Source: Bacteroidota bacterium (GTDB taxonomy: Bacteria; Bacteroidota; Bacteroidia; UBA4408). Taken from it: DNA of 64,000 bases. Position numbers and translations under genes: made by a program. Location of the stretch: positions 10,819-74,818 of the forward strand of contig JAZKHE010000005.1 in NCBI GenBank assembly GCA_040385525.1. The letters run 5' to 3'. The notes below the pieces were generated by a model that was given only the letters and a program-made list of their open reading frames with translations, was not told where the DNA came from and did no database searches. Every line of letters begins with the position of its first letter. Positions within the stretch are counted from its first letter, which is position 1. Positions 5,602 through 47,289 of this stretch are shown piece by piece.

Positions 5602-5602
5602 T

Positions 5603-6319: not shown

Positions 6320-6321
6320 TT

Positions 6322-6434
6322 TAGTGATTAGTAAATAGAGCTTAGAGATTAGTTAATAGTGATTAGAAAAATTAAAAAAAATTAAAATAACACATATAAA
6401 CTTTGTACTCAGTACTTAATACTTTGTACTAAAA
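6322..6434. repeat. Two opposed degenerate heptamer arrays: (TAG-N4)x7 and (ACT-N4)x5
   Basis: 6322-6370 reads tagtgat tagtaaa tagagct tagagat tagttaa tagtgat tagaaaa. 6400-6434 reads actttgt actcagt acttaat actttgt actaaaa. Confidence 0.8.
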
Positions 6435-6439
6435 ATAAA

Positions 6440-7369
6440 ATGAATAAAAATTTAAAATATATACTTTTATTGTGTGCTTTGTTAAGCGCTAACAAAATTT
6501 TGTTGGCTCAGCAAGATGCGCAGTTTACACAATACATGTTTAACCCTTTGGTTTTAAATCCTGCCTATGCAGGAAGTAGAGAAGGTGTTAGCGGAAACAT
6601 GTTGTATCGGGATCAGTGGGCTGCTTTTGACGGTGCGCCAGTTACACAAACATTTAGTATACATTCTCCGTTGCGTAACAACAAAGTAGGTTTAGGATTT
6701 CACGTAATTAACGATCAAATTGGTCCCGTTGGTACAACAGGAGTAAATGGTTCTTACGCTTATCGTTTAAAAATGGGCAAAGGCAAATTAGCTTTGGGTT
6801 TGCGTGCAGGTATTTTTAATTATCGTTTCGATTGGAATAAAATAGAATACAAAGATAAAACAGATGTTTTTGCTGCTGTTTTACCAACGCGCAGGTTTAT
6901 GCCTACATTCGATTTTGGAACGTATTATTACACCGGTAAATTTTATTTGGGAGCAGCTGTTTCACACATCGATCAAGCAACCTATGCAAAAGCAGCTACT
7001 GATGGTAATTATAAAATAAAATTAGCATCGCACATTGTTGTTACGTCGGGATATGCTTGGGTAATAAATAAAAAAGTTACGTTTAAACCTTCTGTAGTTG
7101 TAAAAACATTGGTAAACCAAATCCCTACAATTGATGTAAATGCGGCTGTTTTACTCGACGAAAAATTGTGGTTAGGAGTTGGAGCACGTTCTACTAACGC
7201 GGCTATGATTATTGCGGAATATAACTTAACTAAAAATTTTAGATTTGGTTATTCTTATGATATTTCAATAAATGAATTGCGTTCAGTTAATAAAGGTTCG
7301 CACGAAGTATTTTTAGGATTTGATTTTGAAATTTATAAAACAAGAACATTGTCACCACGCTATTTTTAA
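6440..7369 (+). CDS. PorP/SprF family T9SS outer-membrane protein
   Basis: QQDAQFTQYMFNPLVLNPAYAG start, YRDQWAAFDGAP, and C-terminal GYSYD...GSHEVFLGF. Lies directly downstream of a type-B CTD gene. Confidence 0.93.
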   Translation: MNKNLKYILLLCALLSANKILLAQQDAQFTQYMFNPLVLNPAYAGSREGVSGNMLYRDQWAAFDGAPVTQTFSIHSPLRNNKVGLGFHVINDQIGPVGTTGVNGSYAYRLKMGKGKLALGLRAGIFNYRFDWNKIEYKDKTDVFAAVLPTRRFMPTFDFGTYYYTGKFYLGAAVSHIDQATYAKAATDGNYKIKLASHIVVTSGYAWVINKKVTFKPSVVVKTLVNQIPTIDVNAAVLLDEKLWLGVGARSTNAAMIIAEYNLTKNFRFGYSYDISINELRSVNKGSHEVFLGFDFEIYKTRTLSPRYF

Positions 7370-7388
7370 TAGTTTGGTTTAATTATAT

Positions 7389-10300: not shown

Positions 10301-11060
10301 TGGAACCGTAAAAGAGCAAAAACTAGATGATGGAATTACACGCTTTACAGTACAATCGCACGCAACAATAAACAGTGCAGACTCTGTGCGTCAGTTGTTA
10401 ATTAAAGAAGGCGTAAAAGATGCTTTTGTTACAGCAATTTACAAAGGCAAGCGTTATTTGTTGCGCGATTTAATTGCAATGGGAATTTTTAACTCTACTG
10501 AAGAAGCTTATTTTAGTGCAGTACAAAAAGGAGAAAATAACGTAGCCGAAATTCCTAAAGAAGAAAAAACGGATATAGTAAAACCTATAGAAAACAAAAC
10601 AATTGTCGAAACAAAAACAGAAAACCCTACAACTAACGTTTCGGTTACTGCTGTAGTAGAAGATAAAGTTACAGAAAACAAAACAAAAACTTCAACAGCA
10701 AGTAAAACCAAAGAAGCTGATAAATTAAAATTACCAGCTGATATTGAAAAATTAGTTGATGAGTATGGTGATATTATTACTGATAAAGTAGAATACAGAG
10801 TACAAGTAGGAGCCTTTAAATTAATTACAAGTAGTTATCAATACAAGCGCTTAGAGGAAGTTGGCAGAATCGATAAAAAAGAATACCAAGATGGAATTGT
10901 GCGCTACACAATTGGTCATTGCGAAACTCTGCGAGAAGCCAATAAAATTCGTCGCCAAGTAGTTAAAGTAGGTGTGCAAGATGCCTTTGTGGTTGTGGTG
11001 CAAAAAGGTAACCGCTACACCGTTTACGAAGCCATTCGTAAAGGAATTGTGAAAAAATAG
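7389..11060 (+). CDS. PorE-like periplasmic protein (TPR, PD40 beta-propeller, carboxypeptidase-regulatory-like domains) with repeat insert and two SPOR-like domains
   Basis: N-terminal TPR (ANYHFENFHYAQAIPLY; LADCYRIL). PD40 motifs (HPAISSDG, FSSDMPGGFGGKDLY, GFGGLDIY, SSNRPGGVGGDDIY). C-terminus has TTQVAAY...KDAFVTA and YRVQVGAF...QDAFVVV rather than an OmpA domain. Confidence 0.75.
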   Translation: MKFRFFAAVVFIFLFTGKSLFAQLEKANYHFENFHYAQAIPLYIKAAKKEKTKIVATQKLADCYRILHDYRNAEMQYAQVIKNGGNLPIHHLYYGQMLFNNGHVNSAKEQFDLFSNASGEDKRAQNLMSSIIITRLWSVKQRECDILNVRDLNTLGAEFCAIPYNKNIVFVSDRGTDLVNYSKSSIDDRPYLSMFLAERGKGKDSAKFKKIENFSGKINNEYHNGPATFVESGKQIFFTRVDRKVYAKNSGLINRPRVYYSTKIKDSWDQIRPLAFNNDNYSVAHPAISSDGMTLIFSSDMPGGFGGKDLYICKLEGANWSKPVNLGAKINSVQDEVFPYLHKNGTLYFSSDGHVGFGGLDIYSARYIDNEWREVKNLQEPINSTYDDFGISFLFKHASGYFSSNRPGGVGGDDIYSFDLIKKLPRITAISGKIFRNELDVAQNLEIKLTDETGLVLETTKTDSLGVFRFEKLNPEEDYIVMLDADEVGINTKEVTQFHGRLFYNDDMPANKAKLVIKNKEGVWVKEMETDQAGYFRFDYLEYEKNNLDTITDPDVAFVKKELFKYQQLTTDNIIPDNLNEEETIAKLKKLFKYDELLATTTALNTEENADTEFYVKGNFVYNKLRTDSFALNTLSEDATKFYLKNKFVYNKLTGDSFALKTEEEIADRFYVKDGYRYDKLNGDSIGLSMLYTDNDKFYVKENFRYNKLTGDSISLDLLTEEDVDFDVNSYTLKMRLFTGADFKNIAPGVKVTIKDGNGVVYKETLTDSNGELKVNFLPINRTYVIKVDQDNDVIQQNDNYSTFGRVMNSNSTKFPIKGKEISFANMANILFANSITDDEGFFKLNGKTEKRNALNLIAHQQDSINGLALSDEALRRKQEQIKLNKINNTSDNLSAEQLAEEALRRKKEEERMKLVKLNNTSDKLNALEITDDDILKIYGNKTVRDLTFTTQVAAYKMSKNFAFQKIQQKFGTVKEQKLDDGITRFTVQSHATINSADSVRQLLIKEGVKDAFVTAIYKGKRYLLRDLIAMGIFNSTEEAYFSAVQKGENNVAEIPKEEKTDIVKPIENKTIVETKTENPTTNVSVTAVVEDKVTENKTKTSTASKTKEADKLKLPADIEKLVDEYGDIITDKVEYRVQVGAFKLITSSYQYKRLEEVGRIDKKEYQDGIVRYTIGHCETLREANKIRRQVVKVGVQDAFVVVVQKGNRYTVYEAIRKGIVKK
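8994..9581 (+). repeat. Seven tandem 28-aa (84-bp) intragenic repeats
   Basis: Consensus approximately FxYNKLxxDSxxLxxLxEDxxxFYVKxx, e.g. FVYNKLRTDSFALNTLSEDATKFYLKNK then FVYNKLTGDSFALKTEEEIADRFYVKDG. Confidence 0.8.
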
Positions 11061-30062: not shown

Positions 30063-31152
30063 ATGATTACAACCGAACAAATTAAAGACATTTTAGAGCG
30101 CACGCAAGCGCTGAGGGGGCATCTTTGACATTGATGCCAAGCTAAAAGAAATTGCCGAAAACGAAGAAAGGAGTTTAGCTCCCAACTTTTGGGACGACCC
30201 TAAAAAAGCCGAAGAACTTTTAAAACAAATTAAAATTTCTAAAGATTGGACGCAAAAGTACCAACAATTAGTTTCTTCTTCAGATGATTTAGTAACACTT
30301 TTCGACTTTTTTAAAGAAGGCGAAGCTACTGAAGCTGATATAGAAAGCCAGTTTGAGCAAGCAAATACTTTGGTAGAAGAGCTAGAGTTTAAGAATATGC
30401 TAAGCGGCAAAGAAGATTTGCTAAGCGCTGTAATAACTATTAATGCAGGTGCAGGTGGAACCGAAAGTTGCGATTGGGCAGCTATGCTTTTGCGTATGTA
30501 TAAAATGTGGGCCGAAAAACACGGTTACAAAGTAAACGAAGTTGATTATCAAGATGGTGATGTAGCTGGTTTAAAATCGGTTACCATTCAAATTGAAGGC
30601 GATTATGCTTATGGATATTTAAAGGGCGAAAGTGGTGTGCATCGCTTAGTTAGAATTTCTCCTTTTGATTCTAACGCTAAAAGACATACCAGTTTTGCTT
30701 CTGTTTATGCGTATCCTTTAATTGATGATACCATTGAAGTTGAAGTAAACATGAGCGATATTGAGTGGGATACTTTTAGAGCTGGTGGCGCAGGCGGACA
30801 AAATGTAAATAAGGTGGAAACTGCGGTTCGTTTATTCCACAAACCTTCTGGCATTATTATAAAAAATCAAGAAAGTAGGTCTCAACTTCAGAATAAAGAA
30901 AACGCTGTTAAACTATTAAAATCGCAATTGTACGAAATAGAAATGCGTAAGCGTAGAGAAGCTATTAATACAATAGAAAGTTCTAAAAAGAAAATAGAGT
31001 GGGGTTCGCAAATTCGAAACTATGTAATGCATCCTTATAAATTAGTAAAAGATATTCGTACAGATTACGAAACATCAAACGTGCAAGCAATAATGGATGG
31101 CGAATTAGATGATTTTATAAAAGCGTACTTAATGGAATACGGAGATTCTTAA
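30063..31152 (+). CDS. prfB: Peptide chain release factor 2 with programmed +1 frameshift
   Basis: ORF1 [21 protein letters not shown] ends CTT TGA C at 30123-30129. The +1 frame (GAC ATT GAT...FWDDPKKA) is in frame with ORF 30370-31152, which has the SPF and GGQ motifs. Confidence 0.96.
30114..30129 (+). promoter_or_regulatory. prfB +1 frameshift cassette
   Basis: AGGGGG, 3-nt spacer, CTT TGA C: the canonical RF2 autoregulatory site. Confidence 0.95.
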
Positions 31153-31679: not shown

Positions 31680-32033
31680 ATGATAAAAATATACCACAAC
31701 AATAGATGTTCTAAAAGTAGAGCTGCTTTACAAGCTATTCAACAATCGGGAAATAAGTTTGAGATAATTGATTATTTAAACAACGCGCCCACTTTAGCGG
31801 AACTAAAAAAGTTGATTTCAAATTCTGAATACAACGTAATTGATTTCGTTAGAACAAAAGAAAAGATTTTTGTAGAGAACTACAGAAATCTTTCTTTAAC
31901 AGACAATCAGCTACTTGAAATTTTAGCTAAACATCCAGAACTTTTAGAAAGACCAATTGTGGTTTACAACAAAAAAGTAATTATAGTTCGCGACGAAGAA
32001 AAACTAAAAGAAATTTCTAATTGGCGAATTTAG
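31680..32033 (+). CDS. ArsC/Spx family arsenate reductase-like protein
   Basis: IYHNNRCSKSR and HPELLERPIV. Its 3' end overlaps the convergent PorP gene by 17 bp. Confidence 0.88.
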   Translation: MIKIYHNNRCSKSRAALQAIQQSGNKFEIIDYLNNAPTLAELKKLISNSEYNVIDFVRTKEKIFVENYRNLSLTDNQLLEILAKHPELLERPIVVYNKKVIIVRDEEKLKEISNWRI

Positions 32034-32946
32034 GTTTTACTTTATTCCCTTTTACCAAACTGTAAGACGCAACAATTTCGTGTGTTCCGTTTGAGTGTCT
32101 TCCAATTCGTAATCCTTTAGATACTTTAGCAAAACTCATATCGTAAGCATAACCAACTCTAAAGTTTTTGTTAGCTTGGTACTCTGCCATAACAACGAAC
32201 GCACTACCATTTTTAAAATTACTAAAACGATAAGACAAACCTCCAGTAATTAAATTGTTGTATGTAATTCTGCAATTTAAATCCGTTTGAAGTGGTGCTT
32301 TAGGAGCAAATTTAATTAATGCTGATGGCTTTAAAACCCACTGTGCATCAATATCGTAGTTATAGCCACCATATAAATAAAAATGTCTTTTTAAATTGTA
32401 TAAATTGTGTTTGTCGTAATCTAAAAGTGTTGGAACAGATAAACCTGCGTAATAATCTTTAGCTAAATAAAAAGCACCCAATCCAAACTTTGGAATCCAA
32501 ACACTAGTTTTACTATTGTTAATTATATTATCGTTGTAGTCCCAATAATTACCAGATGATAAATCGTTATTGTAATTGCTAAATCCAGCGGTTGCTCCAA
32601 ACGAAAGCTGATCTTTATTATCAAGTTTTAAATGATAAGAATACGAACCAATAATATCTGTTTGATTTGTTTTTCCAATTCTATCGTTTGCAATTTTTAA
32701 ACCCACACCCATTTTTTCGTCGGGCAAAGCGCCTTCAACTGTTACCGCGTTAGAAACGGGAGCGCCTGCAAAACCAACCCATTGCGAACGATTCATAAAC
32801 GAACCTGTAAAGTATTTGTTTACGCCACCAATTGCTGGATTTATTAAATAAGGAGTAAATAAATACTGACTTACTAAAATTTCTTGTTGTGCATTTACTT
32901 TAGCAATGCTAAATAATAATACAACTAGTATAAAAAGTTTTTTCAT
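32017..32946 (-). CDS. PorP/SprF family T9SS outer-membrane protein
   Basis: QQEILVSQYLFTPYLINPAIGG, RSQWVGFAGAP and VGYAYD...GTHEIVASY. Directly downstream of a type-B CTD giant. Confidence 0.92.
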   Translation of the reverse strand: MKKLFILVVLLFSIAKVNAQQEILVSQYLFTPYLINPAIGGVNKYFTGSFMNRSQWVGFAGAPVSNAVTVEGALPDEKMGVGLKIANDRIGKTNQTDIIGSYSYHLKLDNKDQLSFGATAGFSNYNNDLSSGNYWDYNDNIINNSKTSVWIPKFGLGAFYLAKDYYAGLSVPTLLDYDKHNLYNLKRHFYLYGGYNYDIDAQWVLKPSALIKFAPKAPLQTDLNCRITYNNLITGGLSYRFSNFKNGSAFVVMAEYQANKNFRVGYAYDMSFAKVSKGLRIGRHSNGTHEIVASYSLVKGNKVKPKFAN

Positions 32947-32965
32947 AATTTATATATTCAATTAT

Positions 32966-35900
32966 TTATCGTAAGTCAGTTCTTAATTCAACATAACCTT
33001 TTAATATAATTTCGGTTCCGTCTATTTCTTTTGCTATTGCTACAACAAAGTAAGTTCCGTCTGGTACTTTACCGCTCGATTTTGCAGCTCCATCCCATTC
33101 GTTTTTGTAATCTTTATTGTTGTAAACAACATTACCCCAACGGTTGTAAATTGCAACTTCAGTTCCAGGATAAACTTCAACTCCTCTAATTACAAAGAAA
33201 TCATTTTGTCCATCGCCATTTGGTGTAAACACCGTTGGTAATTCAAGCGCTGGTGGATTTGTTAATACAATGTAAGCAGTATCAATACAATTTATTTCAT
33301 CTACTACAACTACGTGATAGTTGTTTGCAGGAACATCAGCAATGTCTTCTGTAATTGCTTGAGTTGACCAGAAATATTTGTAAGGTGCAAATCCACCTGT
33401 AACTGTTAAATCTATTGAGCCATCACTTAAGTTGTGTTTACTTACATTATATCCACCTTCAAATATCGGACTAGTTAATGTTAAGTTTAACGAATCACCA
33501 ACTGTTATAACAACATCGTCAGATTTAGAAGCACAACCTTTGCTATCTGTAACAGTTACGTTATAGCTACCTGATGCACCAACAATAATACTTTGTGTGC
33601 TTGCGCCAGTGCTCCAAACGTTACCCGTTGTAAAGTTGGTAGATAACGTTAATGTATCGCCAAAACACAACCTGTTTATTTTACTTAAATTAACTAATGG
33701 TTTGTCTGGACTACTTACCGATATTGGTATTAAGTTAGAAGTAGATGTTGTAACTAAACCGCATGATATATAACTAATTTCTAATGAAACAATGTTGCTA
33801 TTAGTTAATGTAGTTGAACTAAAAGTACTTGCATTTGCTCCTGCAACAAGAGCACCATCTATTTTCCAAGCATACGTTACAACTCCTACAGGGTTAATTG
33901 TAGATGTAAAATCAACCACTTGACCAGTGCAAATAGAATTTGTAGAAGCAGTAATTGTTGCACTTATTGGTGTGCCTGCATTCACCGTCATTGTTACAAC
34001 AGCTGATGTTGCTGGTATGTTTCCTACACAAGGATCAGTTGCTGAAATCACACAGAATACTTCATCATTATTTGCTAATGTGTTCGAAGTAAACGTGCTA
34101 TTTGTTCCAACTAATGTTGTATTTAAAAACCATTCGTATGTTAAAGCAGATAAGGTTACGTTTGGTGTAGCCACAAAAGTTACATCTGTATTTTCGCAAA
34201 CTACGTTAGATGGAATTGTAGTAACAACAACCTCAGCAGTTATTGACGGAGTTATTGTCATTGTAAGCGCGTTTGATGTAATAAACGAACTTACACATGT
34301 TGTTGCTATCTGACATGTAATTACATCACCATCTAATATATTATTAAATGTTGGCGATGCACCCATATTAACTCCATTTACTTGCCATTGATATGATGTT
34401 ACTTGCGCAGTAACAGGTAAAATTGCGCTTGTAAACGAAACAGCTTGTGTTGAACAAACATTTGTTCCTGGTAATGCAGTAATAAATATTTGTGGAACCG
34501 CACTAGGTAAAACGGTTGTTACAATTGATGTAGAAACGGTAGTACATGTTCCGTCAAACATCGATACAAATATCTCATCGCCATCAACTAAAGTTGTTGT
34601 GCTAAATGTATTTACTGAACCTGTTGTTAATGTTGTTGCATCGTTTGCTCTAATAAATGTGTAAGTATACGAGCTTACCGCTGGTAAAACGGTAAAGGTA
34701 ACATTGGTTCCATCGCAAATGGTATTGCCTACTGCATCGCTATTTAGCGTTGGAGTAGTTACGCCACTTGGGTTTAAAGCAATTGAAAAAGGATCAGACG
34801 GACAAGCACTTGCATCGGTTAATGTTACCGAGTAGTTTCCTGTTACTAAGCCACTTATACTTTGGTTCGTGCTGCCGTTGTTCCATGCAAAACTAAATGG
34901 TGTGTTTCCACTAACTATTGTTGCGTCTAAAATACCATCGTTACCAAAGCAAGAACTTGGCGGAAAAACTTGTGTAATACTAACCACTGGTGCAGTTTTA
35001 ATAGTAACTGTTAATACGTTTGATGTTACATTTACAGTTGCTGTGCCACAACCCGTGGTTGAAATTGTTAATTGTACAAGGTCGTTATTAAGAAAGCTGT
35101 TGAAAGCAAAACTAGGGTTACTTCCCATATTTGTTCCGTTTACTGCCCATAAATAATCTACCGTAGCACCAACATTTGTAACAGCACTTGAAAAATTAAT
35201 CGTTTCGCCTTCGCAAATTGCCACGCCCACAGCAGAAATTGTTACGCTTGGCGTATTGCTGCTATTTACTATTATGTTAATTGTTGAACTAATTCCTGTA
35301 CAACCAGTTAATGTTGCAATACCAGTAACGCTTATGCTGTGGTTAACAGTCATTGTATCTATTTGTAAAGCAAGAGTAGTGTTTGCTGTGCCAATTGGAT
35401 TTCCGTCCATAAAATAGTTATAGGTATCGGCTCCACCTGGTGTAAAGGTTACTGTTTGTCCAACACAAATTACATTGCCTGCAACATCACTTGTTAATGT
35501 AACTGTTGGTGCTCCAGCATCAGTTATTGATGCAGAAGTTGTAATTGTACATAAATTTCCATCAGTTACAACTACATTGTAAACTCCAGCTACAACTCCT
35601 GTTATACTTGCGTCTGTTTGAGATGGTGTTGAGTTCCAAGAGTAAGTAAAGTTACCATCACCACCGCTAGCAGTAACTAACGCTCCACCTGTTGCAGAAC
35701 CACAAGGTGTAGGGTTAGTAATTGTTGTTATGCTTGCTAGTATTGCTGGGTTAACTGTAATTGTTACATCATCAGTAGAAGCAGAGCATGATCCATTTGT
35801 TATCGACCATCTAAATACATTATTACCAGTTCCTAAACCAGTAACAGGAGTGTTTTGGTTTGTGAAACTTGTAATAAATCCTGCTCCAGAAACTAAAGTC

Positions 35901-38900
35901 CAACTTCCGTTTCCTATAACCGCTGTGTTAGCAGCTAATGTAGCGTTTGTTCCGCAAATTGTTTGGTTTGTTCCAGCATCAGCAGTAGTTGGAGCAGTAT
36001 CTAATGTAATTGTTAATTCGTCTGTATTGTCAGCACAAAGTCCGTTAGAAATTGTCCAACGTAAAACAAGTGGAGCAGCGCTAATAGTAACAGTAGAGCT
36101 AGGATCATTAACACTAGTTATATTTCCATTACCTGCAATAATTGACCAAGTACCAGTTCCAACCGCAGGAGTATTTCCTGCTAAAGTAACCGAACCAATT
36201 GTTTCGCATATATTTTGGTCAGCACCAGCTATTGCTATACTCGGGCCATTATTTGTAATTGTAACATCATCAGTTGTTGGTGGGCAAGTTCCGTTAGAGA
36301 TTGTCCATCTTAAAACATTATCATTTGTACCAATTGCTGTTATTGTTGATGTAGGTGAGTTAGGACTTGTAATAGTTGCTGAACCCGAAACTAAAGTCCA
36401 CACACCTGTGCCAACTACAGCAGTATTTCCAGCTAAAGTAGCGGTTGTTCCGCAAATAGTTTGATTAACACCTGCCTCAGCAATTGTTGGAGGAGTGTCA
36501 ATTGTAATTGTAATTTGATCGCCAGTATCAGGACATAATCCATTAGAGATTGTCCAACTTAATACTAAAGAAGCTCCGCTGATTCCAGTAACAGTAGATG
36601 TGTTTGAGTTAGGAGAAGTTATTGTTCCTGTTCCAGAAACAACTGACCATGTTCCAGTTCCAATTGTAGGATTGTTACCTGCTAAAGTTGTTGTTGTTCC
36701 ACAAATATTGAAATCTGCGCCAGCGTTTGCTAATGTTGGCGAAGGATTAGAAGTAATAGTAACCTCGCTTGCAGAAGTAGCACAAGAGCTATTTCCGATT
36801 GTCCAACGTAAAACGTTTGCACCATTAGCAAGCGCAGAAACAGTAGTCGTTCCTAAATTAGTAGTAGCAAAAGTAGCTGCGCCAGAAACTACCGACCAAG
36901 TTCCAACTCCTGTTGTAGGAATATTACCATCTAAAGTTGCAGTAGTTCCACATATAGTTTGATTGCTTCCAGCAACTGATGTTGATGGTGTAGCATCAAT
37001 TGTTATAGTGACATTATCAGTACTTGCAGGACAAATTCCGCCATCAGAAATTGACCATTGTAAAACAATTGAAGTCCCAGTTATTCCAGTAACTGTTGAG
37101 GTATTAGAGTTTGGAGTAGTAATTGTTCCTGTACCAGAAACTACTGACCAAGTACCTGTGCCAACAGTTGGATTGTTACCCGCTAAAGTTGCAGAACCTA
37201 CTGATTCACAAATATTTAGGTTAGTACCAGCATCTGCAGTAGTTGGTCCATTGCTTGAAATTGTTACTTCACTAGCAGAACTAGCACAAGATCCATTTCC
37301 TATAGTCCAACGTAAAACGTTAGCACCATTATTAAGTGCTGAAACAGTTGTAGTTCCTAAATTGCTATTTGCAAAAGTAGCCGCACCCGAAACCACAGAC
37401 CAAGTTCCAACTCCTGTTGCAGGAATATTTCCGTCTAAAGTGGCAGTTGTTGCACAAACAGCTTGGTTTGTTCCGGCATTAGAAGCAGTTGGAGGAGAAT
37501 CAATAGTAATAGTAATTTGATCTCCGCTATCAGGACATAATCCGTTAGAAATAGTCCAACTCAATACTAAAGAAGCTCCACTAATTCCAGTAACAGTTGA
37601 AGTTTCAGAATTAGGAGAAGTTATTGTTCCAGTTCCAGAAACAACAGACCAAGTTCCAGTTCCAACAATCGCAGTGTTTCCAGCTAAAGTTGTTGTTGTA
37701 GCACAAATATTGAAATCAGTTCCAGCGTTAGCTGTTGTAGGAGCAGGATTTGAAGTAATTGTAACATCGCTAGAAGAAGCAGTACAAGAACCATTTCCGA
37801 TAGTCCAACGTAAAACGTTAGCACCATTATTAAGTGCAGAAATAGTTGTTGTTCCTAAATTATTATTTGCAAAAGTAGCCGCACCCGAAACAATCGACCA
37901 AGTTCCAATACCTGTTGCAGGAATGTTTCCAGCTAAAGTAGTCGTAGTAGCGCAAACTGTTTGATTATTTCCTGCAATTGAAGTTGTAGGCGGAGAATCA
38001 ATTGTAATTGTAATTTGATCGCCAGTATCAGGACATAATCCATTAGAGATTGTCCAACTTAATACTAAAGAAGCTCCGCTGATTCCAGTAACAGTAGATG
38101 TGTTTGAGTTAGGAGAAGTTATTGTTCCTGTTCCAGATATAATTGACCAAGTTCCAGTTCCAATGACTGCAACATTACCTGCCAAAGTTGTTGTAGTGGC
38201 ACAAATATTAAAATCAGTTCCAGCGTTAGCAGTTGTAGGAGCAGGATTAGAAGTTATTGTAACATCGCTAGCAGAACTAGCACAAGAACCGTTTCCAATA
38301 GTCCATCGTAAAACATTAGCACCGTTATTAAGAGCAGAAACAGTTGTTGTTCCTAAATTGCTGTTGGCAAAAGTAGCAGCGCCTGAAACAACAGACCAAG
38401 TTCCAACTCCAGTTGCAGGAATATTTCCATTTAAAGTTGCAGTTGTTGCACAAACAGCTTGGTTTGATCCAGCTATAGAAGTTGTAGGAGGAGAATCAAT
38501 AGTAATTGTAATTTGATCACCAGTATTAGGACATAATCCGTTAGAGATTGTCCAACTCAAAACTAAAGAAGTTCCACTAATTCCAGTAACAGTTGATGTT
38601 TCAGAGTTCGGAGAAGTTATTGTTCCTGTTCCAGAAACAACTGACCAAGTTCCAGTACCAATAACAGCAACGTTACCTGCTAAAGTTGTTGTTGTAGCAC
38701 AAATATTAAAATCAGTACCAGCGTTAGCAGTTGTAGGAGCAGGATTAGAAGTTATTGTAACATCGCTAGCAGAACTAGCACAAGAACCGTTTCCAATAGT
38801 CCATCGTAAAACATTAGCACCGTTATTAAGAGCAGAAACAGTTGTTGTTCCTAAATTGCTGTTGGTAAAAGTAGCAGCGCCTGAAACAACAGACCAAGTT

Positions 38901-41900
38901 CCAACACCTGTTGCAGGAATGTTTCCAGCTAAAGTAGCTGTAGTTCCACAAACAGTTTGGTTAGTGCCAGCGTTAGATGCGGTTGGAGGTGTTGAAGAAA
39001 CTATTGTAACATCATCAGTAGAAGAAGTACAAGGGGCATTAGCAATCGTCCATCTGAATACGTTGTTTCCAACAGATAAAGCAGTAACTCCCGATGTAGG
39101 AGAACTAGGAGTTGTAATAGTTGCTGTTCCAGAAATTACAGACCAAGTTCCAGTTCCAACAACGGCAGTATTACCAGCTAAAGTAGCCGTAATAGCACAA
39201 ACCGTTTGATTAACACCAGCATCAGAAGTTGTTGGTGCAGAATTAATAGTAATAGTAACATCATCAGAAGAAATTGGACAAGATCCATTTCCTATCGACC
39301 ATCTAAATACCACAGAAGCACCTGCAATAGCAGTAACTCCAGAAGTAGCAGAGTTAGCAGAAGTTATAGTAGCTGTACCAGAAACCACCGACCAAGTACC
39401 AACACCCGTAGCAGGTACATTTCCAGCTAAAGTAGCTGTTGTTCCACAAATGCTGAAATCAGTTCCTGCGTTAGCGGTTGTAGACGCGGCAGTTCTTATA
39501 ATTGTAACATCATCAGTAGAAGAAGTACAAGGGGCATTAGCAATCGTCCATCTGAATACGTTGTTTCCAACAGATAAAGCAGTAACTCCCGATGTAGGAG
39601 AACTAGGAGTTGTAATAGTTGCTGTTCCAGAAATTACAGACCAAGTTCCAGTTCCAACAACGGCAGTATTACCAGCTAAAGTAGCCGTAATAGCACAAAC
39701 CGTTTGATTAACACCAGCATCAGAAGTTGTTGGTGCAGAATTAATAGTAATAGTAACATCATCAGAAGAAATTGGACAAGATCCATTTCCTATCGACCAT
39801 CTAAATACCACAGAAGCACCTGCAATAGCAGTAACTCCAGAAGTAGCAGAGTTAGCAGAAGTTATAGTAGCTGTACCAGAAACCACCGACCAAGTACCAA
39901 CACCCGTAGCAGGTACATTTCCAGCTAAAGTAGCTGTTGTTCCACAAATGCTGAAATCAGTTCCTGCGTTAGCGGTTGTAGACGCGGCAGTTCTTATAAT
40001 TGTAACATCATCAGTAGAAGAAGTACAAGGGGCATTAGCAATCGTCCATCTGAATACGTTGTTTCCAACAGATAAAGCAGTAACTCCCGATGTAGGAGAA
40101 CTAGGAGTTGTAATAGTTGCTGTTCCAGAAATTACAGACCAAGTTCCAGTTCCAACAACGGCAGTATTACCAGCTAAAGTAGCCGTAATAGCACAAACCG
40201 TTTGATTAACACCAGCATCAGAAGTTGTTGGTGCAGAATTAATAGTAATAGTAACATCATCAGAAGAAATTGGACAAGATCCATTTCCTATCGACCATCT
40301 AAATACCACAGAAGCACCTGCAATAGCAGTAACTCCAGAAGTAGCAGAGTTAGCAGAAGTTATAGTAGCTGTACCAGAAACCACCGACCAAGTTCCAACG
40401 CCAGTAGCAGGAACATTACCTGCCAGAGTAGCTGTTGTTCCGCAAATACTGAAGTCAGTACCAGCATTAGCCGTAGTAGGCGCGGCAGTTCTTACAATCG
40501 TAACATCATCAGTAGAAGCAGTACAAGGCGCATTTGCAATTGTCCATCTAAATACGTTATTACCAACAGCAAGACCAGTAACATTGGATGTAGGAGAGCT
40601 AGTTGTAGTAACAGATGCACCACCACTAATTACAGTCCAAGTTCCAGTTCCAACAACGGCAGTATTACCAGCTAAAGTAGCCGTAGTAGCACATACACTT
40701 TGGTTTGAACCTGCATCAGAAGTTGTTGGAGCAGAAGTAATGGTTACCGTAACATCATCAGAAGAAATTGGACAAGATCCATTTCCTATTGACCATCTAA
40801 ACACAACAGAAGCACCCGCAATAGCAGTAACTCCAGAAGTAGCAGAGTTAGCAGAAGTTATAGTAGCTGTACCAGAAACCACCGACCAAGTTCCAACGCC
40901 AGTAGCAGGAACATTACCTGCCAGAGTAGCTGTTGTTCCGCAAATACTGAAGTCAGTACCAGCATTAGCCGTAGTAGGCGCGGCAGTTCTTATAATTGTA
41001 ACATCATCAGTAGAAGAAGTACAAGGGGCGTTAGCAATTGTCCATCTAAATACGTTGTTTCCAATAGCAAGACTAGTAACATTTGATGTTGGAGAGCTAG
41101 GAGTAGTAACAGAAGCACCACCACTAATTACAGTCCAAGTTCCAGTTCCAATAACAGCAGTATTACCTGCTAAAGTAGCCGTTGTAGCACAAACCGTTTG
41201 ATTAACACCTGCATCAGAAGTTGTTGGAGCAGGATTAACCGTTAAAGTCATATCATCAGTTGTAGGCGTACAAGTTCCGTTAGAAACAGTCCATCTAAAT
41301 ACAACAGAAGCACCAGCAATACCCGTAACACCAGACGTTCTAAGCGAGGGAGTTGTAATTGTTGCTGTTCCAGAAACTACAGACCAAACACCAGTTCCTG
41401 TTGCAGGAGCTGTAGCGGCTAAAGTTGTTGTTGTTGCACAAATAGTTTGGTCGGGTCCTGCAGCAGCAGCACTAGGTGCAGCAGTTCTTATAATTGTAAC
41501 ATCATCAGTAGAAGAAGTACAAGGTGCATTAGCAATTGTCCATCTAAAAACGTTGTTTCCAACAGATAAAGCAGTAACTCCTGATGTAGGAGAACTAGGA
41601 GTTGTTAGTGTTGAAGTACCTGAAATTCTAGTCCAAGTTCCAGTTCCAATAACAGCAGTATTACCTGCTAAAGTAGCCGTAATAGCACATACAGTTTGGT
41701 TAATACCAGCATCAGAAGTTGTTGGCGCAGGGTTTATTGTAATTGTAACATCATCGGTAGATGAAGTACATGGAGCGTTAGCAATAGTCCAACGCATTAC
41801 TACAGAAGCACCAGCAATACCTGTTAATGTTGAAGTAGGAGAATTAGCACTTGTAATAGTAGCGGTTCCAGAAACTACAGACCAAGTTCCAGTACCTATA

Positions 41901-44869
41901 ACTGCAGTATTACCAGCTAATGTTGTAGTTGTACCACAAATAGTTTGGTCTGTCCCTGCATTAGCAGTTGTTGGAACAGGACTAACTGTTAAAGTCATGT
42001 CATCTGTAGTTGGAGTACAAATTCCGTTAGAAACTGTCCATCTAAAAACAACAGAAGGTCCTGCTATTCCAGTAACGCCAGAAGTTCTAAGAGAAGGTGT
42101 AGTAACAGTTGCAGTTCCCGAAACTACTGACCATGCACCAGTCCCTGTTGCGGGAGCAGTAGCGGCAAGTGTAGCTGTGGTAGCGCAAATTGTTTGATCT
42201 GGCCCAGCAGCAGCAACGCTTGGTGATGCTATCCTTACTATTGTTACGTCATCAGTAGATGAAGTACAAGGTGCATTAGCAATTGTCCATCTAAATACGT
42301 TGTTTCCTATAGATAAAGCAGTAATTCCTGAAGTAGGTGAACTAGGAGTTGTTATTGTTGATGTACCAGAAATTCTTGTCCAAGTTCCAGTTCCAATTAC
42401 AGCAGTGTTACCTGCTAAAGTAGTTGTTGTAGCACAAACAGTTTGATCGCTTCCTGCGTCAGCCACAGTTGGAGCTGAGCTAACTGTTAATGTCATATCA
42501 TCAGTAGTAGGTGTACAACTTCCGTTAGAAACTGTCCATCTAAACACAACCGAAGGTCCAGCAATACCAGTAACACCAGAAGTTCTAAGAGAAGGAGCCG
42601 TAACGGTTGCTGTTCCAGAAACAACAGACCACGCGCCAGTTCCAATTGCAGGAGCTGTAGCGGCAAGTGTAGTTGTGGTAGCACAAATTGTTTGGTCAGG
42701 TCCAGCAGCAGCAGCACTTGGTGATGGCGTAACAGTAAGTGTCATGTCATCAGTAGTAGGCGTACAAGTTCCGTTAGAAACCGTCCATCTAAACACAACC
42801 GAAGCTCCAGCAATACCTGTTACTGTTGATGTATTTGATGAAGGAGTTGTAACTGTTGCTGTTCCAGAAACTACTGACCAAGCGCCAGTTCCAATTGCTG
42901 GTGTAGTAGCAGCTAAAGTTGTCGTTGTTCCACAAATAGTTTGGTCGGATCCAGCAGCCGCAGCGCTAGGAGCCGAAGTTCTAATTATTGTAACATCGTC
43001 AGTAGATGAAGTACAGCCTGGGATTGCAATCGTCCATCTAAATACACTTGTTCCAACGCTAATTGCGGTTATGTTACTAGTTGGGCTGTTTGCAGAAGCA
43101 ATTGTTCCGGTTCCACTAATTCTTGTCCAAGTTCCTGTGCCTATTACCGCTGTATTACCAGCCATTGTAGTTGTTGCAGCACAAATTGTTTGGTTCGGTC
43201 CTGCATCAGAAGTTGTTGGAGGATTATTTCTTGTAATTGTTATATCGTCTGTTGCATCTGGACATAATCCATTAGTTACAGTCCATCTAAAAACAGATGA
43301 ACCAACTGCTATTGCAGTAACGCCAGAGTTTCTTAGGGTTGGTGATGTAATTGTAGCGCTTCCAGAAATTAAAGTCCAGCTACCAGTTCCTATTGCGGGA
43401 GCTGTAGCGTTTAGTGTTGCTGTAGTAGCACAAATAGTTTGATCGGCACCAGCTGCAGATGTTGGCGATGCATTTCTTGTTATACTTACATCGTCTGATG
43501 TTGAAGTACAAGGAGCGTTTGCAATTGTCCATCTAAAAACAGAAGTTCCTACAGCAAGAGCTGTAATTGTTGAAGTTGGGCTATTAGCAGAAGTAATTGT
43601 TCCTGAACCAGAAATTCTTGTCCAAGTACCAGTTCCAACTGCTGCAACGTTTCCTGCTAAAGTAGCAGAAGTTGCACAAACAGCCTGATCAGCACCAGCA
43701 TTTGCTACTGTAGGAGTAGTTGCTCTAAATATTGTTACATCGTCTGTTGAGTTTGGGCAAGGACCTCCGTTAGAAATTGTCCATCTAAAAACATTGTTTC
43801 CTGTTGCTAAACCAGTAACTCCAGAAGTATTGGAGCTAGGTGTTGTTACTGCTCCACCACCAGAAATAACTGTCCAAGTACCGGTTCCTACAGTAGGTGT
43901 GTTTCCTGCTAAAGTAGCTGTTGTGGCACAAATGTTTTGGTTTGGTCCTGCATCTGAAACAGTTGGAGGTGTATTAAAAGTTATGGTTATATCATCTGTA
44001 GAGTCAGTACATGGAGGGTTAGCAATTGTCCATCTAAATACGTTAGCACCAGTTCCTAATGCAGTAACTGTTGTGTTTCTTAGTGCTGCATTTGTAATTG
44101 TTCCTGTGCCTGATACTAATGACCAAGCTCCTGTTCCAACAGTTGGATTGTTTCCTGCTAATGTAGTGTTATTAACACATACTGCTTGATCAGCTCCAGC
44201 GTTTGATGTTGTAGCGGCAGAATTAACTACTAAAGTAACTTGATCTACGTTATCAGTACAACCAGCTTTTGAAAAGGTCCAGTTAAAAACATAGGTTCCG
44301 TTAATAAGGCCAGTTATTGTTGTTGTCGGACTTGTATTGCTTGTTATTGTAGGTACGTTTGGTCCACTTGATAAACTCCAAACTCCTGTTGATGCAGGAA
44401 CGCCTAATCCAGGAGCGGGGTCGTTTCCAGCCATTGTTGCTGTTGTGCTGTTACAAATTGAATTTTGATCTACGCCAGCATCTGGAAACAGAGGCTCAAA
44501 AATATCGATACCTAAACCACCTACAAATAATTGATTTGCTAAAGGACAACCTACTTTTCTTACTCTAATAGTGTACGAACTACTTGGTAAATTGTTGAAC
44601 ACTGCAATTGTGCCTGTTCCTGTAACTGTTGTTACTGGTGTGTTTGGCAAAATTACTGGAGTTCCACTTACATCTAAAAGAGCAAAGGTTAATGTTCCTG
44701 TTAAAGTTACATCAACTGTTATTGTTCCATCATTTGCACCAAAACATGTAATTTCTGTAAAACTAAAAGTGTGGGGTGTAGCTGCACTGGGGCATTGAGC
44801 AAAGGCATTATTACTTGCACCTAAAACTAAAGTAAAAACAACTAGCGAGTAGAGTAATTTTTTTATCAT
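32966..44869 (-). CDS. Giant (3967 aa) T9SS type-B surface adhesin: 35 PKD/Ig-like repeats, SprB and Ig-like domains, CHU_C CTD
   Basis: Signal peptide ending NAFA|Q. Repeats xAGx(D/N)QTxC...GTGxW...FRWxIxNxxC...DDVTI. SprB repeats. [19 protein letters not shown]...YNRWGNVVY...WDG...PDGTYF. Confidence 0.92.
35745..44482 (-). repeat. Array of 35 repeats of about 83 aa (about 249 bp), each with 2 Cys and 2 Trp
   Basis: Counted from the AGx(D/N) motifs in the translation. Repeats 14-29 alternate A/B with a 498-bp period. Confidence 0.88.
39003..40393. repeat. Nucleotide-identical 498-bp tandem repeat, about 2.8 copies
   Basis: attgtaacatcatcagtagaagaag... recurs at 39003, 39501 and 39999. Alternative-frame ORFs at 498-bp offsets translate identically. 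Identity ends at 40393. Confidence 0.88.
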
Positions 44870-44891
44870 ATAGCGAATATCTGTCTATTAA

Positions 44892-45212
44892 TTATTTAAT
44901 ATTAATGTTTTCTTGTTTACCTATAAATAAAGGGTTACAGCCTTTTTCATTTATTCTAACAATATAATTGCCAACTGGTAAATTAGTAAAAGAAATATTG
45001 TTGTGATTAAGCTCAGGTTTAGCGTCAAAATTTAAAAATGGCTGACCATTTTCTACTTTATATAAAACAGCTGCTGTATACTTTGAAACTTGGTTTAAAC
45101 TAATTGTAATAGTATTGTTAATCGAAGATTGTTTTTTTACTTCTGGACACTGCGCATTAGCTTCTAAAAAGGTAAAAACAAATAGTAAAACAAAAATAAA
45201 TCCTGCTTTCAT
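44892..45212 (-). CDS. Small secreted protein, paralog of the adhesin N-terminal domain
   Basis: A|QCP start and FTNLPVGNYIVRINEKGCNPLFIG, versus adhesin A|QCP and [27 protein letters not shown]. Confidence 0.7.
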   Translation of the reverse strand: MKAGFIFVLLFVFTFLEANAQCPEVKKQSSINNTITISLNQVSKYTAAVLYKVENGQPFLNFDAKPELNHNNISFTNLPVGNYIVRINEKGCNPLFIGKQENINIK

Positions 45213-45485: not shown

Positions 45486-46448
45486 ATGAAATATAAAAAT
45501 TACAAGTATTTTTTACACTTCTGCCTGATTATCTTGCTGTTGGCTTCGACAAGTGCCTTTGCCCAACGCAAAAAAAAGTTTGAAGCAACTTTTGGATTAG
45601 GCGCGACCAATTTTTATGGAGAATTGGGCGGAGCTAATCAAATAGGTAGAGATTATTTTTACGATTACGATTTAAAAGCTAACAGACCAGTAATAAACCT
45701 AGGCTTAAGATACCAAACCTGTGAGTTTGCAGCTGTTAAAACTAATTTGTTTTATGGACTTTTAAAAGGTTCTGACCAATATACAAAAGAGCAATACCGC
45801 AACAACAGAAACTTAAGTTTTCGCTCTCCAGTTTTTGAGTTTTCTTCTCAAGTTGAAATTTCATTTTTAAAAGATAAAGGCAAAAACTTTTTTAAAGTGC
45901 CTTGGGTGTACGGCAAAAAAGTTGTTAAAGTTAAAAAAGGAAAACGAAATGGTGTTTGGGATTATTACCCTTATGGATTTGTAGGTATAGGTGTTTTTTA
46001 TTTTAATCCAAAGGCGCAATACAATGGTAAATGGACAGCTTTGCAGCCGCTGGGGACCGAAGGACAAGGTTTAAACGGAACTGAAAAATATAAAAAAATT
46101 GGACTATCAATACCTTATGGTGTTGGTTTAAAATATAAGGTTGATAATTTAATTACTGTTTCTTTAGACGTTGGCGTTAGAAAAACATTTACTGATTACA
46201 TTGATGATGTTAGTGGCGATTATTATGATAAAGCGGAACTAAACAGAACTTACGGACCTGTTTCGGCGGCTTTGTCAGACCCATCGCTTGGCGACCATCC
46301 TAATTGGACAGTTACTGGCGAACAACGTGGCGATCCAACCGATAAAGATTCTTATTTATTTGCAGTAGTTTCAGTTAATTATCGTTTCCAAAACTTTAAG
46401 CAATTATACCAAGATTTGTTTAAGAAAAAGCTTAGACCTAAGTTTTAA
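45486..46448 (+). CDS. DUF6089 family outer-membrane beta-barrel protein
   Basis: LGATNFYGELGG, RNNRNLSFRS, ALQPLGTEGQG, RKTFTDYIDDVS and RGDPTDKDSY. Confidence 0.8.
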   Translation: MKYKNYKYFLHFCLIILLLASTSAFAQRKKKFEATFGLGATNFYGELGGANQIGRDYFYDYDLKANRPVINLGLRYQTCEFAAVKTNLFYGLLKGSDQYTKEQYRNNRNLSFRSPVFEFSSQVEISFLKDKGKNFFKVPWVYGKKVVKVKKGKRNGVWDYYPYGFVGIGVFYFNPKAQYNGKWTALQPLGTEGQGLNGTEKYKKIGLSIPYGVGLKYKVDNLITVSLDVGVRKTFTDYIDDVSGDYYDKAELNRTYGPVSAALSDPSLGDHPNWTVTGEQRGDPTDKDSYLFAVVSVNYRFQNFKQLYQDLFKKKLRPKF

Positions 46449-46482
46449 ACAATAAATTTGCGCTCCATTACGTTTTAGGCAA

Positions 46483-47289
46483 ATGCTTGTTTACCAGAAA
46501 AAAGTTTATTTTTCGTTATTATTTTTACTTGGCACTGTTTTTTGCTACGCGCAAAAAAACGAAAAATTTGTACCTTATTCTGAGTTAGGTTTAACGTTGG
46601 GCACAACGTATTATAATGGTGAATTAAATCCTACTATTCAGTTTCCTGTAACTCTACTAAAACCAGCATTCGGATTGAGTTATAGACGAAACACATCTAA
46701 AAGATATGCCTTAGCTTTAACGGCAATTTATGGTAATTTAAAAGCTGATGAAACCCATGCTAATCACGCTTTTTCAACAGTGCGTTCAGCTAGTTTTAAA
46801 ACTATTTTGGTAGATCTTGCTGGCAAAGTAGAGTTCAACTTTTTTCAGTATGAAGTTGGTCACAAACGACATTTTTCTACACCTTTTGTTTTTGTTGGAA
46901 TTGCAGGTTATTACATCAATCCTAAAGTTTCGGTAAGCGGAATTTCGAGTCCCGAATCGTTTAGTGTTTCTCCCGTTCAATTGGCATTTCCATTAGGCAT
47001 TGGTTACAAAGCATCAATTGCTCGCCGTTTATCGTTAACAGTAGAATGCGGTTGGCGAAAAACGTATACTGATTATATTGATGGAATTAGTAAAGTTTAT
47101 CCCGGTGCAGATACTTTAAACACTGCGTTTTCTATTGCAGGAAAACAAAGAGGAAATTCTAAAAATAATGATTGGTTCACCTTTGCGGGTGTTACAATTG
47201 CTTACACAATTTATGATAAAGGAAGTTTATGTCCTGCTTACGATAAAAAACGTCCAATTAAGAGATGGATTGAAGATAAGGTTTATTAA
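46483..47289 (+). CDS. DUF6089 family beta-barrel, PorG-like by position
   Basis: GTTYYNGELN, RKTYTDYIDGIS and RGNSKNNDWF. Immediately upstream of uppS-bamA-skp-skp, where porG sits in Porphyromonas. Confidence 0.75.
   Translation: MLVYQKKVYFSLLFLLGTVFCYAQKNEKFVPYSELGLTLGTTYYNGELNPTIQFPVTLLKPAFGLSYRRNTSKRYALALTAIYGNLKADETHANHAFSTVRSASFKTILVDLAGKVEFNFFQYEVGHKRHFSTPFVFVGIAGYYINPKVSVSGISSPESFSVSPVQLAFPLGIGYKASIARRLSLTVECGWRKTYTDYIDGISKVYPGADTLNTAFSIAGKQRGNSKNNDWFTFAGVTIAYTIYDKGSLCPAYDKKRPIKRWIEDKVY

What the first reader, a model, noticed from the sequence alone, without database searches (positions are those of the whole stretch)
44892..45212. Stand-alone secreted copy of the giant adhesin's N-terminal tip domain encoded just upstream
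Seen: the 106-aa protein and the adhesin N-domain both begin A|QCP and share F.NLP...Y.(V/I)R(I/V)...GC...LF(I/V)G with matching Cys positions. The small protein has a signal peptide, no CTD, and ends 22 nt before the adhesin ATG. Inference: a cap, strand-complementing partner or periplasmic chaperone for the tip. It may be a second case in this window of a CTD-less passenger co-exported with a CTD protein.
Basis: partly seen in the sequence, partly recalled or inferred. Interest (0 to 1): 0.62.

Follow-up and report, generated by a model that had tools for sequence, protein, structure and literature searches.

The report
Mini copy of adhesin tip domain
A small secreted protein encoded just ahead of a giant surface adhesin is a diverged copy of that adhesin's outermost domain. 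The same gene pair recurs in distant Bacteroidota, which points to an undescribed partner protein for the adhesin tip.

Summary
Window 44892-45212(-) encodes a 106-aa protein with a Sec signal peptide (…ANA|QCP) and one Ig-like domain (AlphaFold pLDDT 91). It is under strong purifying selection (dN/dS about 0.08).

- **Homology.** Its mature part matches the N-terminal domain of the 3967-aa type-B-CTD adhesin that starts 22 nt downstream (profile-profile E 9e-12, full length). That match beats canonical SprB repeats (E 6e-7) and type-A CTDs (66% probability, one hairpin only). Each family's HMM finds only the other family in this genome.
- **Survey.** A survey seeded with the adhesin domain found 18 species genomes, mostly Cytophagales, with this N-domain subtype. 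All 18 have a mini gene ending 2-22 nt before the adhesin start. None of 17 adhesins with a canonical SprB first domain has one.
- **Evolution.** The minis form one clade and co-diverge with their adhesins (r = 0.88).
- **Signals.** The mini has no CTD. It looks like a complete fold, so strand complementation is unlikely.

Function is inferred. Most likely it is a dedicated binding partner of the tip domain, either a periplasmic cap or a co-exported second tip chain. No paper found describes such a component.

The parts
44892..45212 (-). Mini gene, 106 aa. Signal peptide is codons 1-20 (45153-45212), the mature Ig-like domain is 44895-45152, and the stop is 44892-44894.
   Evidence: ORF and translation. 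dN/dS 0.06-0.10 at dS 0.8-1.3 against two orthologous contigs. AlphaFold pLDDT 90.9, all-beta.
44870..44891 (-). 22-nt spacer between the mini stop and the adhesin ATG, with no terminator. This implies co-transcription.
   Evidence: Sequence. Terminator scan found none. The spacer is 2-22 nt in the related loci I checked by hand.
44480..44869 (-). Adhesin signal peptide (44798-44869, …AFA|QCP) and its specialised SprB-like N-terminal (distal) domain (about 44480-44797). This domain is the paralog of the mini.
   Evidence: Pfam SprB repeat hit at residues 34-55. Three Cys in all 23 homologs tabulated.
32966..44869 (-). Giant adhesin, 3967 aa. It has K319L-like PKD/Ig repeats, SprB-type and PKD-like domains, and a type-B CTD (CHU_C, residues 3876-3960 = 32990-33244).
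32017..32946 (-). PorP/SprF-family outer-membrane carrier for the type-B CTD adhesin. It has no C-terminal twin-Cys tail.
   Evidence: Pfam PF11751, 222.8 bits. Translation. The twin-Cys motif is described in PMC12635249.
45230..45280 (-). Conserved non-coding block (…GGTTTATCAACTTTTTATTAACATTTTTGTGCAACTTTATAATTAA) about 20-70 nt upstream of the mini ATG. It is probably the operon promoter or leader, which would make the mini the first cistron.
   Evidence: The block is nearly invariant across four loci, including L015, whose mini protein is only 48% identical. Its function as a promoter is inferred.

Best explanation
**Shown.**
- The 106-aa protein is a real, Sec-exported, single-domain Ig-like protein.
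- It arose by one old duplication of the 5' end (signal peptide plus first domain) of a particular lineage of giant SprB-like type-B-CTD adhesins.
- It has been kept ever since as the gene immediately upstream of that adhesin.
- In this window it appears to be the first cistron of a mini - adhesin - PorP/SprF operon.
- It carries no T9SS C-terminal signal.

**Inferred.**
- The mini binds the adhesin's specialised N-terminal (distal) domain in the periplasm. The contact would be a heterotypic Ig-Ig contact descended from a homotypic one, so the mini acts as a dedicated cap or partner of the tip.
- Two fates are about equally likely. In one, it leaves with the adhesin through the T9SS translocon as a second chain of the tip, possibly held by a disulfide that uses the invariant Cys next to the mature N-terminus of both proteins. 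In the other, it stays behind as a periplasmic holdase that keeps the last-exported domain soluble and unpaired.
For: **Homology and specificity.**

**Real gene.** dN/dS is about 0.08. The AlphaFold model is confident.

**Strict linkage.**
- All 5 metagenome contigs found through the mini have the adhesin directly downstream.
- All 18 GTDB species loci found through the adhesin N-domain (domain E <= 1e-17) have a mini directly upstream, plus L081 with a truncated adhesin.
- None of 17 adhesins with a canonical SprB first domain has one.

**Single origin.** The minis form one clade with 97/93 support, and it groups weakly with the cognate N-domains.

**Co-divergence.** r = 0.88 between mini and N-domain distances, Mantel 0 of 2000.

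**Cysteines.** The N-terminal Cys and the post-strand-F Cys are invariant in 25 of 25 minis. There are exactly three Cys in 23 of 23 adhesin N-domains.

**Same compartment.** Both proteins have signal-peptidase-I signal peptides.

**Co-expression.** The promoter-like block upstream of the mini is conserved and there is no terminator before the adhesin.

**Precedents.** Functional intermolecular disulfides occur in this machinery (SprF-GldK, PMC12635249). Giant T9SS Ig-repeat proteins can form multi-chain assemblies (GhpA heptamer, bioRxiv 10.1101/2024.01.29.577165).
Against:
- The mini is a complete fold and needs no partner to fold.
- Its amino-acid make-up (K/E/N-rich) differs from the T/S/G-rich adhesin domain. 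That fits a different compartment, or simply a stand-alone soluble protein.
- Most SprB-like adhesins do without a mini, so it is not a general requirement.
- I found no precedent for T9SS export of a CTD-less protein by hitch-hiking.
- Linkage and co-divergence would also arise from simple co-inheritance of neighbouring genes with unrelated functions.
Confidence: 0.55

Rival explanations
1. The mini has an independent function. It would be a small periplasmic or released Ig-like protein, for example a ligand-binding or decoy protein that competes for the adhesin's receptor or blocks self-binding. It would be co-regulated with the adhesin but would not bind it.
For: - The fold is complete and confidently predicted.
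- Its composition and net charge differ from the adhesin domain.
- It diverges about 1.3 times faster than the adhesin domain.
- It has no export signal beyond Sec.
Against: Adjacency is strict and tight (2-22 nt), and the mini co-occurs only with one N-domain subtype across two orders. That is hard to explain without a direct functional link. A decoy acting outside the cell would itself need export across the outer membrane.
Confidence: 0.2
2. The mini is a free-standing T9SS type-A CTD-like module. It would be a 'CTD-only' protein recognised by PorV and the translocon on its own.
For: There are weak Por_Secre_tail hits: TIGR04183 at 16-17 bits in 6 of 12 members, and hhalign Prob 66% over the G.Y hairpin.
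Against: - The score is below the 23-bit cut-off and far below the weakest of the genome's 89 real CTDs at 30.5 bits.
- The match covers only 35 columns.
- The adhesin N-domain (score 65.7, 86 columns) and SprB repeats (score 39.1) match much better.
- The same hairpin is found in SdrD_B, CarboxypepD_reg and Y_Y_Y domains.
Confidence: 0.04
3. The mini is a neutral remnant or silent cassette. It would be a leftover 5' duplication, or a recombination donor for varying the tip, with no protein function of its own.
For: It clearly arose by duplication of the adhesin's 5' end.
Against: - dN/dS is 0.06-0.10 with saturating dS.
- The ORF, signal peptide and two Cys are intact in 25 lineages down to 16-22% identity.
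- Only about 25% protein identity to the adhesin domain leaves no DNA homology for recombination.
Confidence: 0.02

Closest known systems
SprB repeat domains (Pfam PF13573) of Bacteroidota gliding and surface adhesins
   Same: It is an Ig-like beta-sandwich of about 80-100 aa with the …F.nL.aG.Y.v.v.d..GC… hairpin. The mini profile matches canonical SprB repeats at 92% probability, and the adhesin's own first domain hits PF13573.
   Different: The mini is a free-standing secreted protein, not a repeat in a giant chain. It lacks the C.G..DG motif and the GG..Y.Y motif, and it does not hit PF13573. It shares with the tip domain an N-terminal Cys next to the signal-peptidase site and a longer middle insert.
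The sprCDBF operon and type-B CTD/PorP(SprF) cognate pairs of Flavobacterium johnsoniae (Rhodes et al. 2011 as cited in PMC12635249; PMC12618676; PMC9143113)
   Same: A giant type-B-CTD adhesin is encoded with its own PorP/SprF carrier, and accessory genes sit upstream in the same operon.
   Different: By my recollection SprC and SprD are large proteins unrelated to SprB's domains. Here the accessory protein is a 10-kDa paralog of the adhesin's own distal domain. The SprF homolog here lacks the C-terminal twin-Cys that links SprF to GldK.
Periplasmic chaperones and tip subunits of chaperone-usher pili (PapD/FimC; established knowledge)
   Same: An Ig-like protein encoded with an adhesive fibre could pair with an Ig-like fibre domain in the periplasm and cap it.
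   Different: There is no PapD-like two-domain architecture and no Pfam hit. Both partners look like complete folds, so donor-strand complementation is not indicated.
GhpA grappling hooks of Aureispira (bioRxiv 10.1101/2024.01.29.577165)
   Same: It is a giant T9SS substrate built of Ig-like domains with PorP and PorE partners and a distal N-terminal binding module. Its chains are held together partly by disulfides.
   Different: GhpA is a homo-heptamer, and the passages I read mention no separate small tip paralog.

Membership tests
SprB repeat (PF13573) | A match to the Pfam model at the gathering score, including the C-x-G-x-x-(D/N)-G start motif. | tested here: not met
   None of the six minis hits PF13573, while five of six cognate adhesin N-domains do, best E 6e-11. 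The first Cys and the G..DG motif are deleted or degenerate in the window's mini.
SprB repeat (PF13573) | Remote homology of the whole domain to canonical SprB repeats. | tested here: met
   hhalign of the mini profile against nine canonical repeats gives Prob 92%, E 6e-7, over 52-56 columns.
Paralog of the cognate adhesin's N-terminal domain | A closer and longer match to that domain than to any other domain family, found in both directions. | tested here: met
   hhalign score is 65.7 over 86 columns, against 39.1 for SprB repeats and 27.0 for type-A CTDs. HMM hits are reciprocal within the genome. The shared AxA|QCP start is unique to these two ORFs in the genome.
T9SS type-A CTD (TIGR04183 / PF18962) | A score above the curated cut-off, and a position at the C-terminus of a passenger. 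| tested here: not met
   The score is 16-17 bits against a 23-bit cut-off, and the genome's 89 true CTDs score 30.5-64 bits. There is no passenger domain.
T9SS type-B CTD (CHU_C, PF13585) | A CHU_C domain at the C-terminus. | tested here: not met
   The mini has no hit even at E <= 10. The adhesin has one at 85.8 bits.
Sec/signal-peptidase-I secreted protein following the Bacteroidota Q-rule | An n-h-c signal peptide with AxA followed by Gln at +1. | tested here: met
   MKAGFIFVLLFVFTFLEANA|QCP, read by eye. No signal-peptide predictor was available. The site is not a lipobox, because Q rather than G/A/S precedes the Cys. The Q-rule is recalled from established knowledge.
PapD-like periplasmic pilus chaperone | A two-domain Ig architecture matching the PapD-like periplasmic pilus-chaperone Pfam families. 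| tested here: not met
   The protein has a single 86-aa domain and no such Pfam hit at E <= 10.
Physical partner of the adhesin tip | Direct binding to the N-terminal domain. | not testable with these tools
   No multimer prediction or experiment was available. The only support is genomic linkage and co-divergence.

The most novel reading that the evidence does not exclude
The mini is a covalent second chain of the adhesin tip. In the periplasm, the invariant Cys next to the mature N-terminus of one protein would attack a donor disulfide in the other. The adhesin domain always has three Cys and the mini has two or three. The disulfide-linked heterodimer would then pass folded through the T9SS translocon, carrying a CTD-less protein to the end of a filament that may be over 100 nm long. 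There the two paralogous Ig domains together would form the binding site, in an Fv-like arrangement. This would be the first case of hitch-hiking through the T9SS and of a two-chain adhesin tip in Bacteroidota.
Probability: 0.15. Interest if true: 0.85.

Novelty: new variant of a known kind. Interest (0 to 1): 0.6.

Why it matters
- **A possible new component.** Giant type-B-CTD adhesins are the working ends of Bacteroidota gliding, attachment and predation. Their known accessory proteins, such as PorP/SprF, PorE and SprC/D, all act at the cell-proximal end. A conserved 10-kDa paralog of the distal domain, always encoded ahead of one adhesin lineage, would be a new component acting at the far end.
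- **Questions it makes testable.** It offers a way to ask how the last-exported domain of a 4000-residue filament is handled in the periplasm. It also offers a way to ask whether the T9SS can carry a CTD-less passenger.
- **Annotation.** It defines a small protein family with no Pfam, NCBIfam or PDB relative.
- **Tractability.** At least one carrier is cultured: Pseudochryseolinea flava SDU1-6.

Tried and rejected
- **Single-sequence searches are too weak.** phmmer and blastp of the genome rank the adhesin about third, at E about 0.08. The case rests on profiles.
- **Searches seeded with the mini found little.** Word-seeded searches of 5.8 billion proteins found only close relatives. Pattern-seeded scans of GTDB genomes and JGI metagenomes with the first six-member mini alignment found nothing. 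The distant members were found only by searching with the adhesin N-domain and then looking upstream.
- **A wasted search.** A search with the adhesin's first 200 aa returned nothing, probably because truncated ORFs are not in that collection.
- **Type-A CTD identity rejected**.
- **Lipoprotein rejected.** There is no lipobox.
- **Read-through or frameshift fusion with the adhesin rejected.** The adhesin is in another frame and has its own signal peptide.
- **Silent recombination cassette rejected.** There is no DNA-level similarity and the gene is under strong purifying selection.
- **Fold search uninformative.** Foldseek against the PDB gave only generic Ig V-domain matches (TM about 0.6, E about 3e-3). 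A PDB sequence search found nothing.
- **No expression data.** No RNA-seq runs exist for this metagenome-assembled genome.
- **Charge complementarity is only a trend.** The adhesin domain is always acidic, and the mini ranges from -4 to +5.

Full report
**1. What is at the coordinates**

Window 44892-45212 on the minus strand is an ATG-started ORF of 106 codons. Its product is MKAGFIFVLLFVFTFLEANA|QCPEVKK…NLPVGNYIVRINEKGCNPLFIGKQENINIK. By eye it has a typical n-h-c signal peptide with an AxA site followed by Gln. That is the usual form for signal-peptidase-I substrates in Bacteroidota (established knowledge). It is not a lipobox.

The stop codon is followed by 22 nt and then by the ATG (44869) of a 3967-aa protein (32966-44869). 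That protein carries:
- many K319L-like PKD/Ig repeats;
- SprB-type and PKD-like domains;
- a CHU_C type-B T9SS C-terminal domain at 85.8 bits.

Directly after it lies a PorP/SprF-family gene (32017-32946, 222.8 bits). Upstream and divergent are two DUF6089 barrels, uppS and bamA. There is no terminator-like site between the mini and the adhesin.

A block of about 45 nt, some 20-70 nt upstream of the mini ATG, is almost invariant in four loci. One of them (L015) has a mini protein only 48% identical. I read this block as the operon promoter or leader. That is an inference.

**2. Is it a real gene?**

Two metagenome contigs carry orthologs at 83% and 88% identity in the same arrangement. Nei-Gojobori estimates give dN/dS of 0.06-0.10 at dS of 0.8-1.3. 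This is the same range as the adhesin's own first domain.

AlphaFold2 on a 12-row alignment gives a nine-strand all-beta sandwich with mean pLDDT 90.9. Foldseek against the PDB returns only generic Ig V-type domains (TM about 0.6, E about 3e-3). A PDB sequence search finds nothing. Pfam and NCBIfam give no hit above threshold.

**3. Is the resemblance to the adhesin's N-terminal domain more than chance?**

On single sequences the evidence is mixed:
- Smith-Waterman on the two mature domains scores 66, against 24 +/- 4.4 for shuffles.
- A genome-wide blastp or phmmer search places the adhesin only about third, at E about 0.08.
- The reason is that the …L.pG.Y.v.v… hairpin is shared by SprB, SdrD_B, CarboxypepD_reg, Y_Y_Y and type-A CTD domains.

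With profiles the picture is clear. All comparisons below use the mini profile with signal peptides removed.

| Mini profile compared with | Probability | E-value | Score | Columns |
|---|---|---|---|---|
| Cognate adhesin N-domains (six) | 97.4% | 9e-12 | 65.7 | 86 (full length) |
| Canonical SprB repeats (nine) | 92% | 6e-7 | 39.1 | 52-56 |
| Type-A CTDs of this genome (46) | 66% | 5.7e-5 | 27.0 | 35 |

Further support:
- The adhesin-N HMM finds only the adhesin and the mini in the whole genome at E <= 1e-5.
- A broader mini HMM finds the adhesin N-domain as its only other hit (E 4.5e-8).
- AxA|QCP occurs in only these two ORFs of the genome.
- Among 125 pairs of a small ORF upstream of a large ORF, this pair ranks second.

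One refinement is needed. The adhesin domain has three Cys (QC, the canonical SprB TC-FGANDG, and GC). The window's mini keeps only the first and the last.

**4. The survey**

An exhaustive HMMER search of 1.84 billion representative proteins found three further mini-sized homologs, at 49%, 36% and about 31% identity. Each lies 16-20 nt before, or overlaps, a gene that starts with a signal peptide, AQCP and the same kind of domain.

These loci were found through the mini, so I ran the converse. A scan of GTDB species genomes seeded with the adhesin N-domain returned 80 loci. I then searched all ORFs in those loci with mini HMMs. The outcome was bimodal.

| Adhesin first domain | Loci | Loci with a mini upstream |
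|---|---|---|
| Strong match to this subtype (domain E <= 1e-17): L040-L055, L058, L059 | 18 | 18 |
| Canonical GG..Y.Y SprB type (E 1e-6 to 1e-10): L019, L021-L036 | 17 | 0 |

- The 18 positive loci are mostly Cyclobacteriaceae, Ohtaekwangia, Roseivirgaceae and Flammeovirgaceae metagenome-assembled genomes, plus the isolate Pseudochryseolinea flava SDU1-6.
- Their minis are 112-151 codons measured stop to stop and end just before the adhesin start. In the spacers I checked by hand, the gap is 2-22 nt.
- L081 has a mini next to a truncated adhesin start.
- Two further loci (L065, L099) have a weakly mini-like ORF upstream of a divergent adhesin.
- Within the window's own family (27 species) and a 400-genome sample of its class, only this genome has the pair. 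The module is therefore rare and patchy.

**5. Evolution**

In a maximum-likelihood tree the six minis form one clade (97/93). That clade groups, weakly (71/67), with their cognate N-domains rather than with other adhesins' first domains or internal SprB repeats.

Across 23 pairs, the distances between minis and the distances between N-domains correlate at r = 0.88 (Mantel 0 of 2000). The minis diverge about 1.3 times faster.

Across 25 minis, down to 16-22% identity, the invariant residues are:
- the Cys next to the mature N-terminus;
- the Cys after strand F;
- the Tyr of the hairpin, and a Phe.

All 23 cognate N-domains tabulated have exactly three Cys. An A|QC(P) start also occurs in adhesins without minis. 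It is therefore a hallmark of the first, distal domain of this adhesin class. This shows that the mini derives from the tip domain and not from an internal repeat.

**6. How it most likely works**

Shown:
- a secreted, complete Ig-like paralog of the tip domain;
- apparently co-transcribed with the adhesin;
- co-inherited with it and restricted to one tip subtype;
- no CTD.

Inferred: it binds that tip domain. Duplicated Ig-like domains commonly keep an ancestral homotypic contact as a heterotypic one (established principle). Both proteins enter the periplasm together.

I put about 0.55 on a direct partner role, split roughly evenly between two fates.

- **Co-exported second chain of the tip.**
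  - The cysteine pattern fits this reading: an odd count in the adhesin domain and an invariant N-terminal Cys in both.
  - The same machinery uses a donor-disulfide mechanism to link SprF to GldK (PMC12635249).
  - Giant T9SS Ig-repeat proteins can form disulfide-stabilised multi-chain structures.
- **Periplasmic holdase that stays behind.**
  - The lack of any CTD fits this reading.
  - I found no report of hitch-hiking through the T9SS.
  - The mini's K/E-rich make-up fits too.

Strand complementation is unlikely because the fold is complete. The adhesin domain itself is modelled less confidently (pLDDT 68, with a disordered loop at residues 49-61). That is compatible with a domain that benefits from a partner, but it proves nothing.

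**7. Comparison with what is known**

The locus is an ordinary type-B CTD adhesin plus PorP/SprF pair (PMC9143113, PMC12618676). No PorE-like gene was found among the Pfam-scanned ORFs next to the PorP/SprF gene. In F. johnsoniae that arrangement goes with mobile adhesins. However, the SprF homolog here lacks the twin-Cys tail needed for linkage to the gliding track.

The new element is the mini. It is a small protein family absent from Pfam, NCBIfam and the PDB, acting (by inference) at the distal end. I found no paper describing it, but my literature search was limited.

**8. Verdict**

- The 'copy of the tip domain' reading is supported and holds in the other carriers found.
- The function is inferred.
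- The module is a new variant within known T9SS adhesin systems.
- Interest is moderate to high, because the module is conserved and specific, and at least one carrier is cultured.

Noticed in passing
window 2155-11060: This is a second type-B locus. A 1148-aa protein with no Pfam hit (2155-5601) overlaps by 11 nt a 242-aa protein that has its own signal peptide, one SprB-like repeat and a CHU_C CTD (5591-6319). A PorP/SprF gene (6440-7369) follows, then a 1223-aa protein with PD40 and CarboxypepD_reg matches, possibly PorE-like (7389-11060).
   Followed up: partly
window 32017-32946: The PorP/SprF homolog ends …KVKPKFAN and has no C-terminal twin-cysteine motif. In F. johnsoniae SprF that motif forms the disulfide to GldK, so this adhesin may not be coupled covalently to a gliding track.
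   Followed up: partly
L040-L059, L065, L099, about 1790-2510 in each locus: In the Cytophagales loci and two other Bacteroidia loci, a conserved ORF of about 185-200 aa lies on the same strand, roughly 60-270 nt upstream of the mini. It has an N-terminal membrane helix (FWIWLIVIVITLIARANKKK) and an acidic low-complexity region. It is absent from the window, where DUF6089 genes lie upstream instead.
   Followed up: no
window 45486-47289; also L008, L015, L016: Two tandem DUF6089 outer-membrane barrels lie divergent from the mini. At least one divergent DUF6089-like gene is also present in L008, L015 and L016, but not in the Cytophagales loci.
   Followed up: no
window 30093-31152: The release factor 2 gene is split over two overlapping frames (30093-30410 and 30370-31152 in the ORF list). 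The Pfam PCRF and RF-1 hits fall in the second frame. This is probably the usual programmed +1 frameshift of prfB.
   Followed up: no
G000 contig C10:15590-18423 (outside the window): This was the only small-upstream/large-downstream ORF pair in the genome that scored higher than the mini/adhesin pair. A 201-aa ORF sits 2 nt upstream of a 741-aa type-A-CTD protein (Smith-Waterman score 139). It may be a split gene or a tandem paralog.
   Followed up: no
L019-L036 (class-level relatives): Fourteen of sixteen giant SprB-like adhesins inspected in other families start their mature chain with A|QCP. The other two (L019, L032) deviate slightly, one reading A|QCN. The start is followed by a SprB-type first domain carrying an extra Cys. 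A Cys at position 2 of the mature protein seems to be a general hallmark of the distal domain of this adhesin class.
   Followed up: partly
window 34000-44000: G+C is 38-43% across the adhesin gene against 30-34% in the flanks. This probably reflects its Thr/Ala/Gly/Ser-rich repeats rather than foreign origin, but I did not test that.
   Followed up: no
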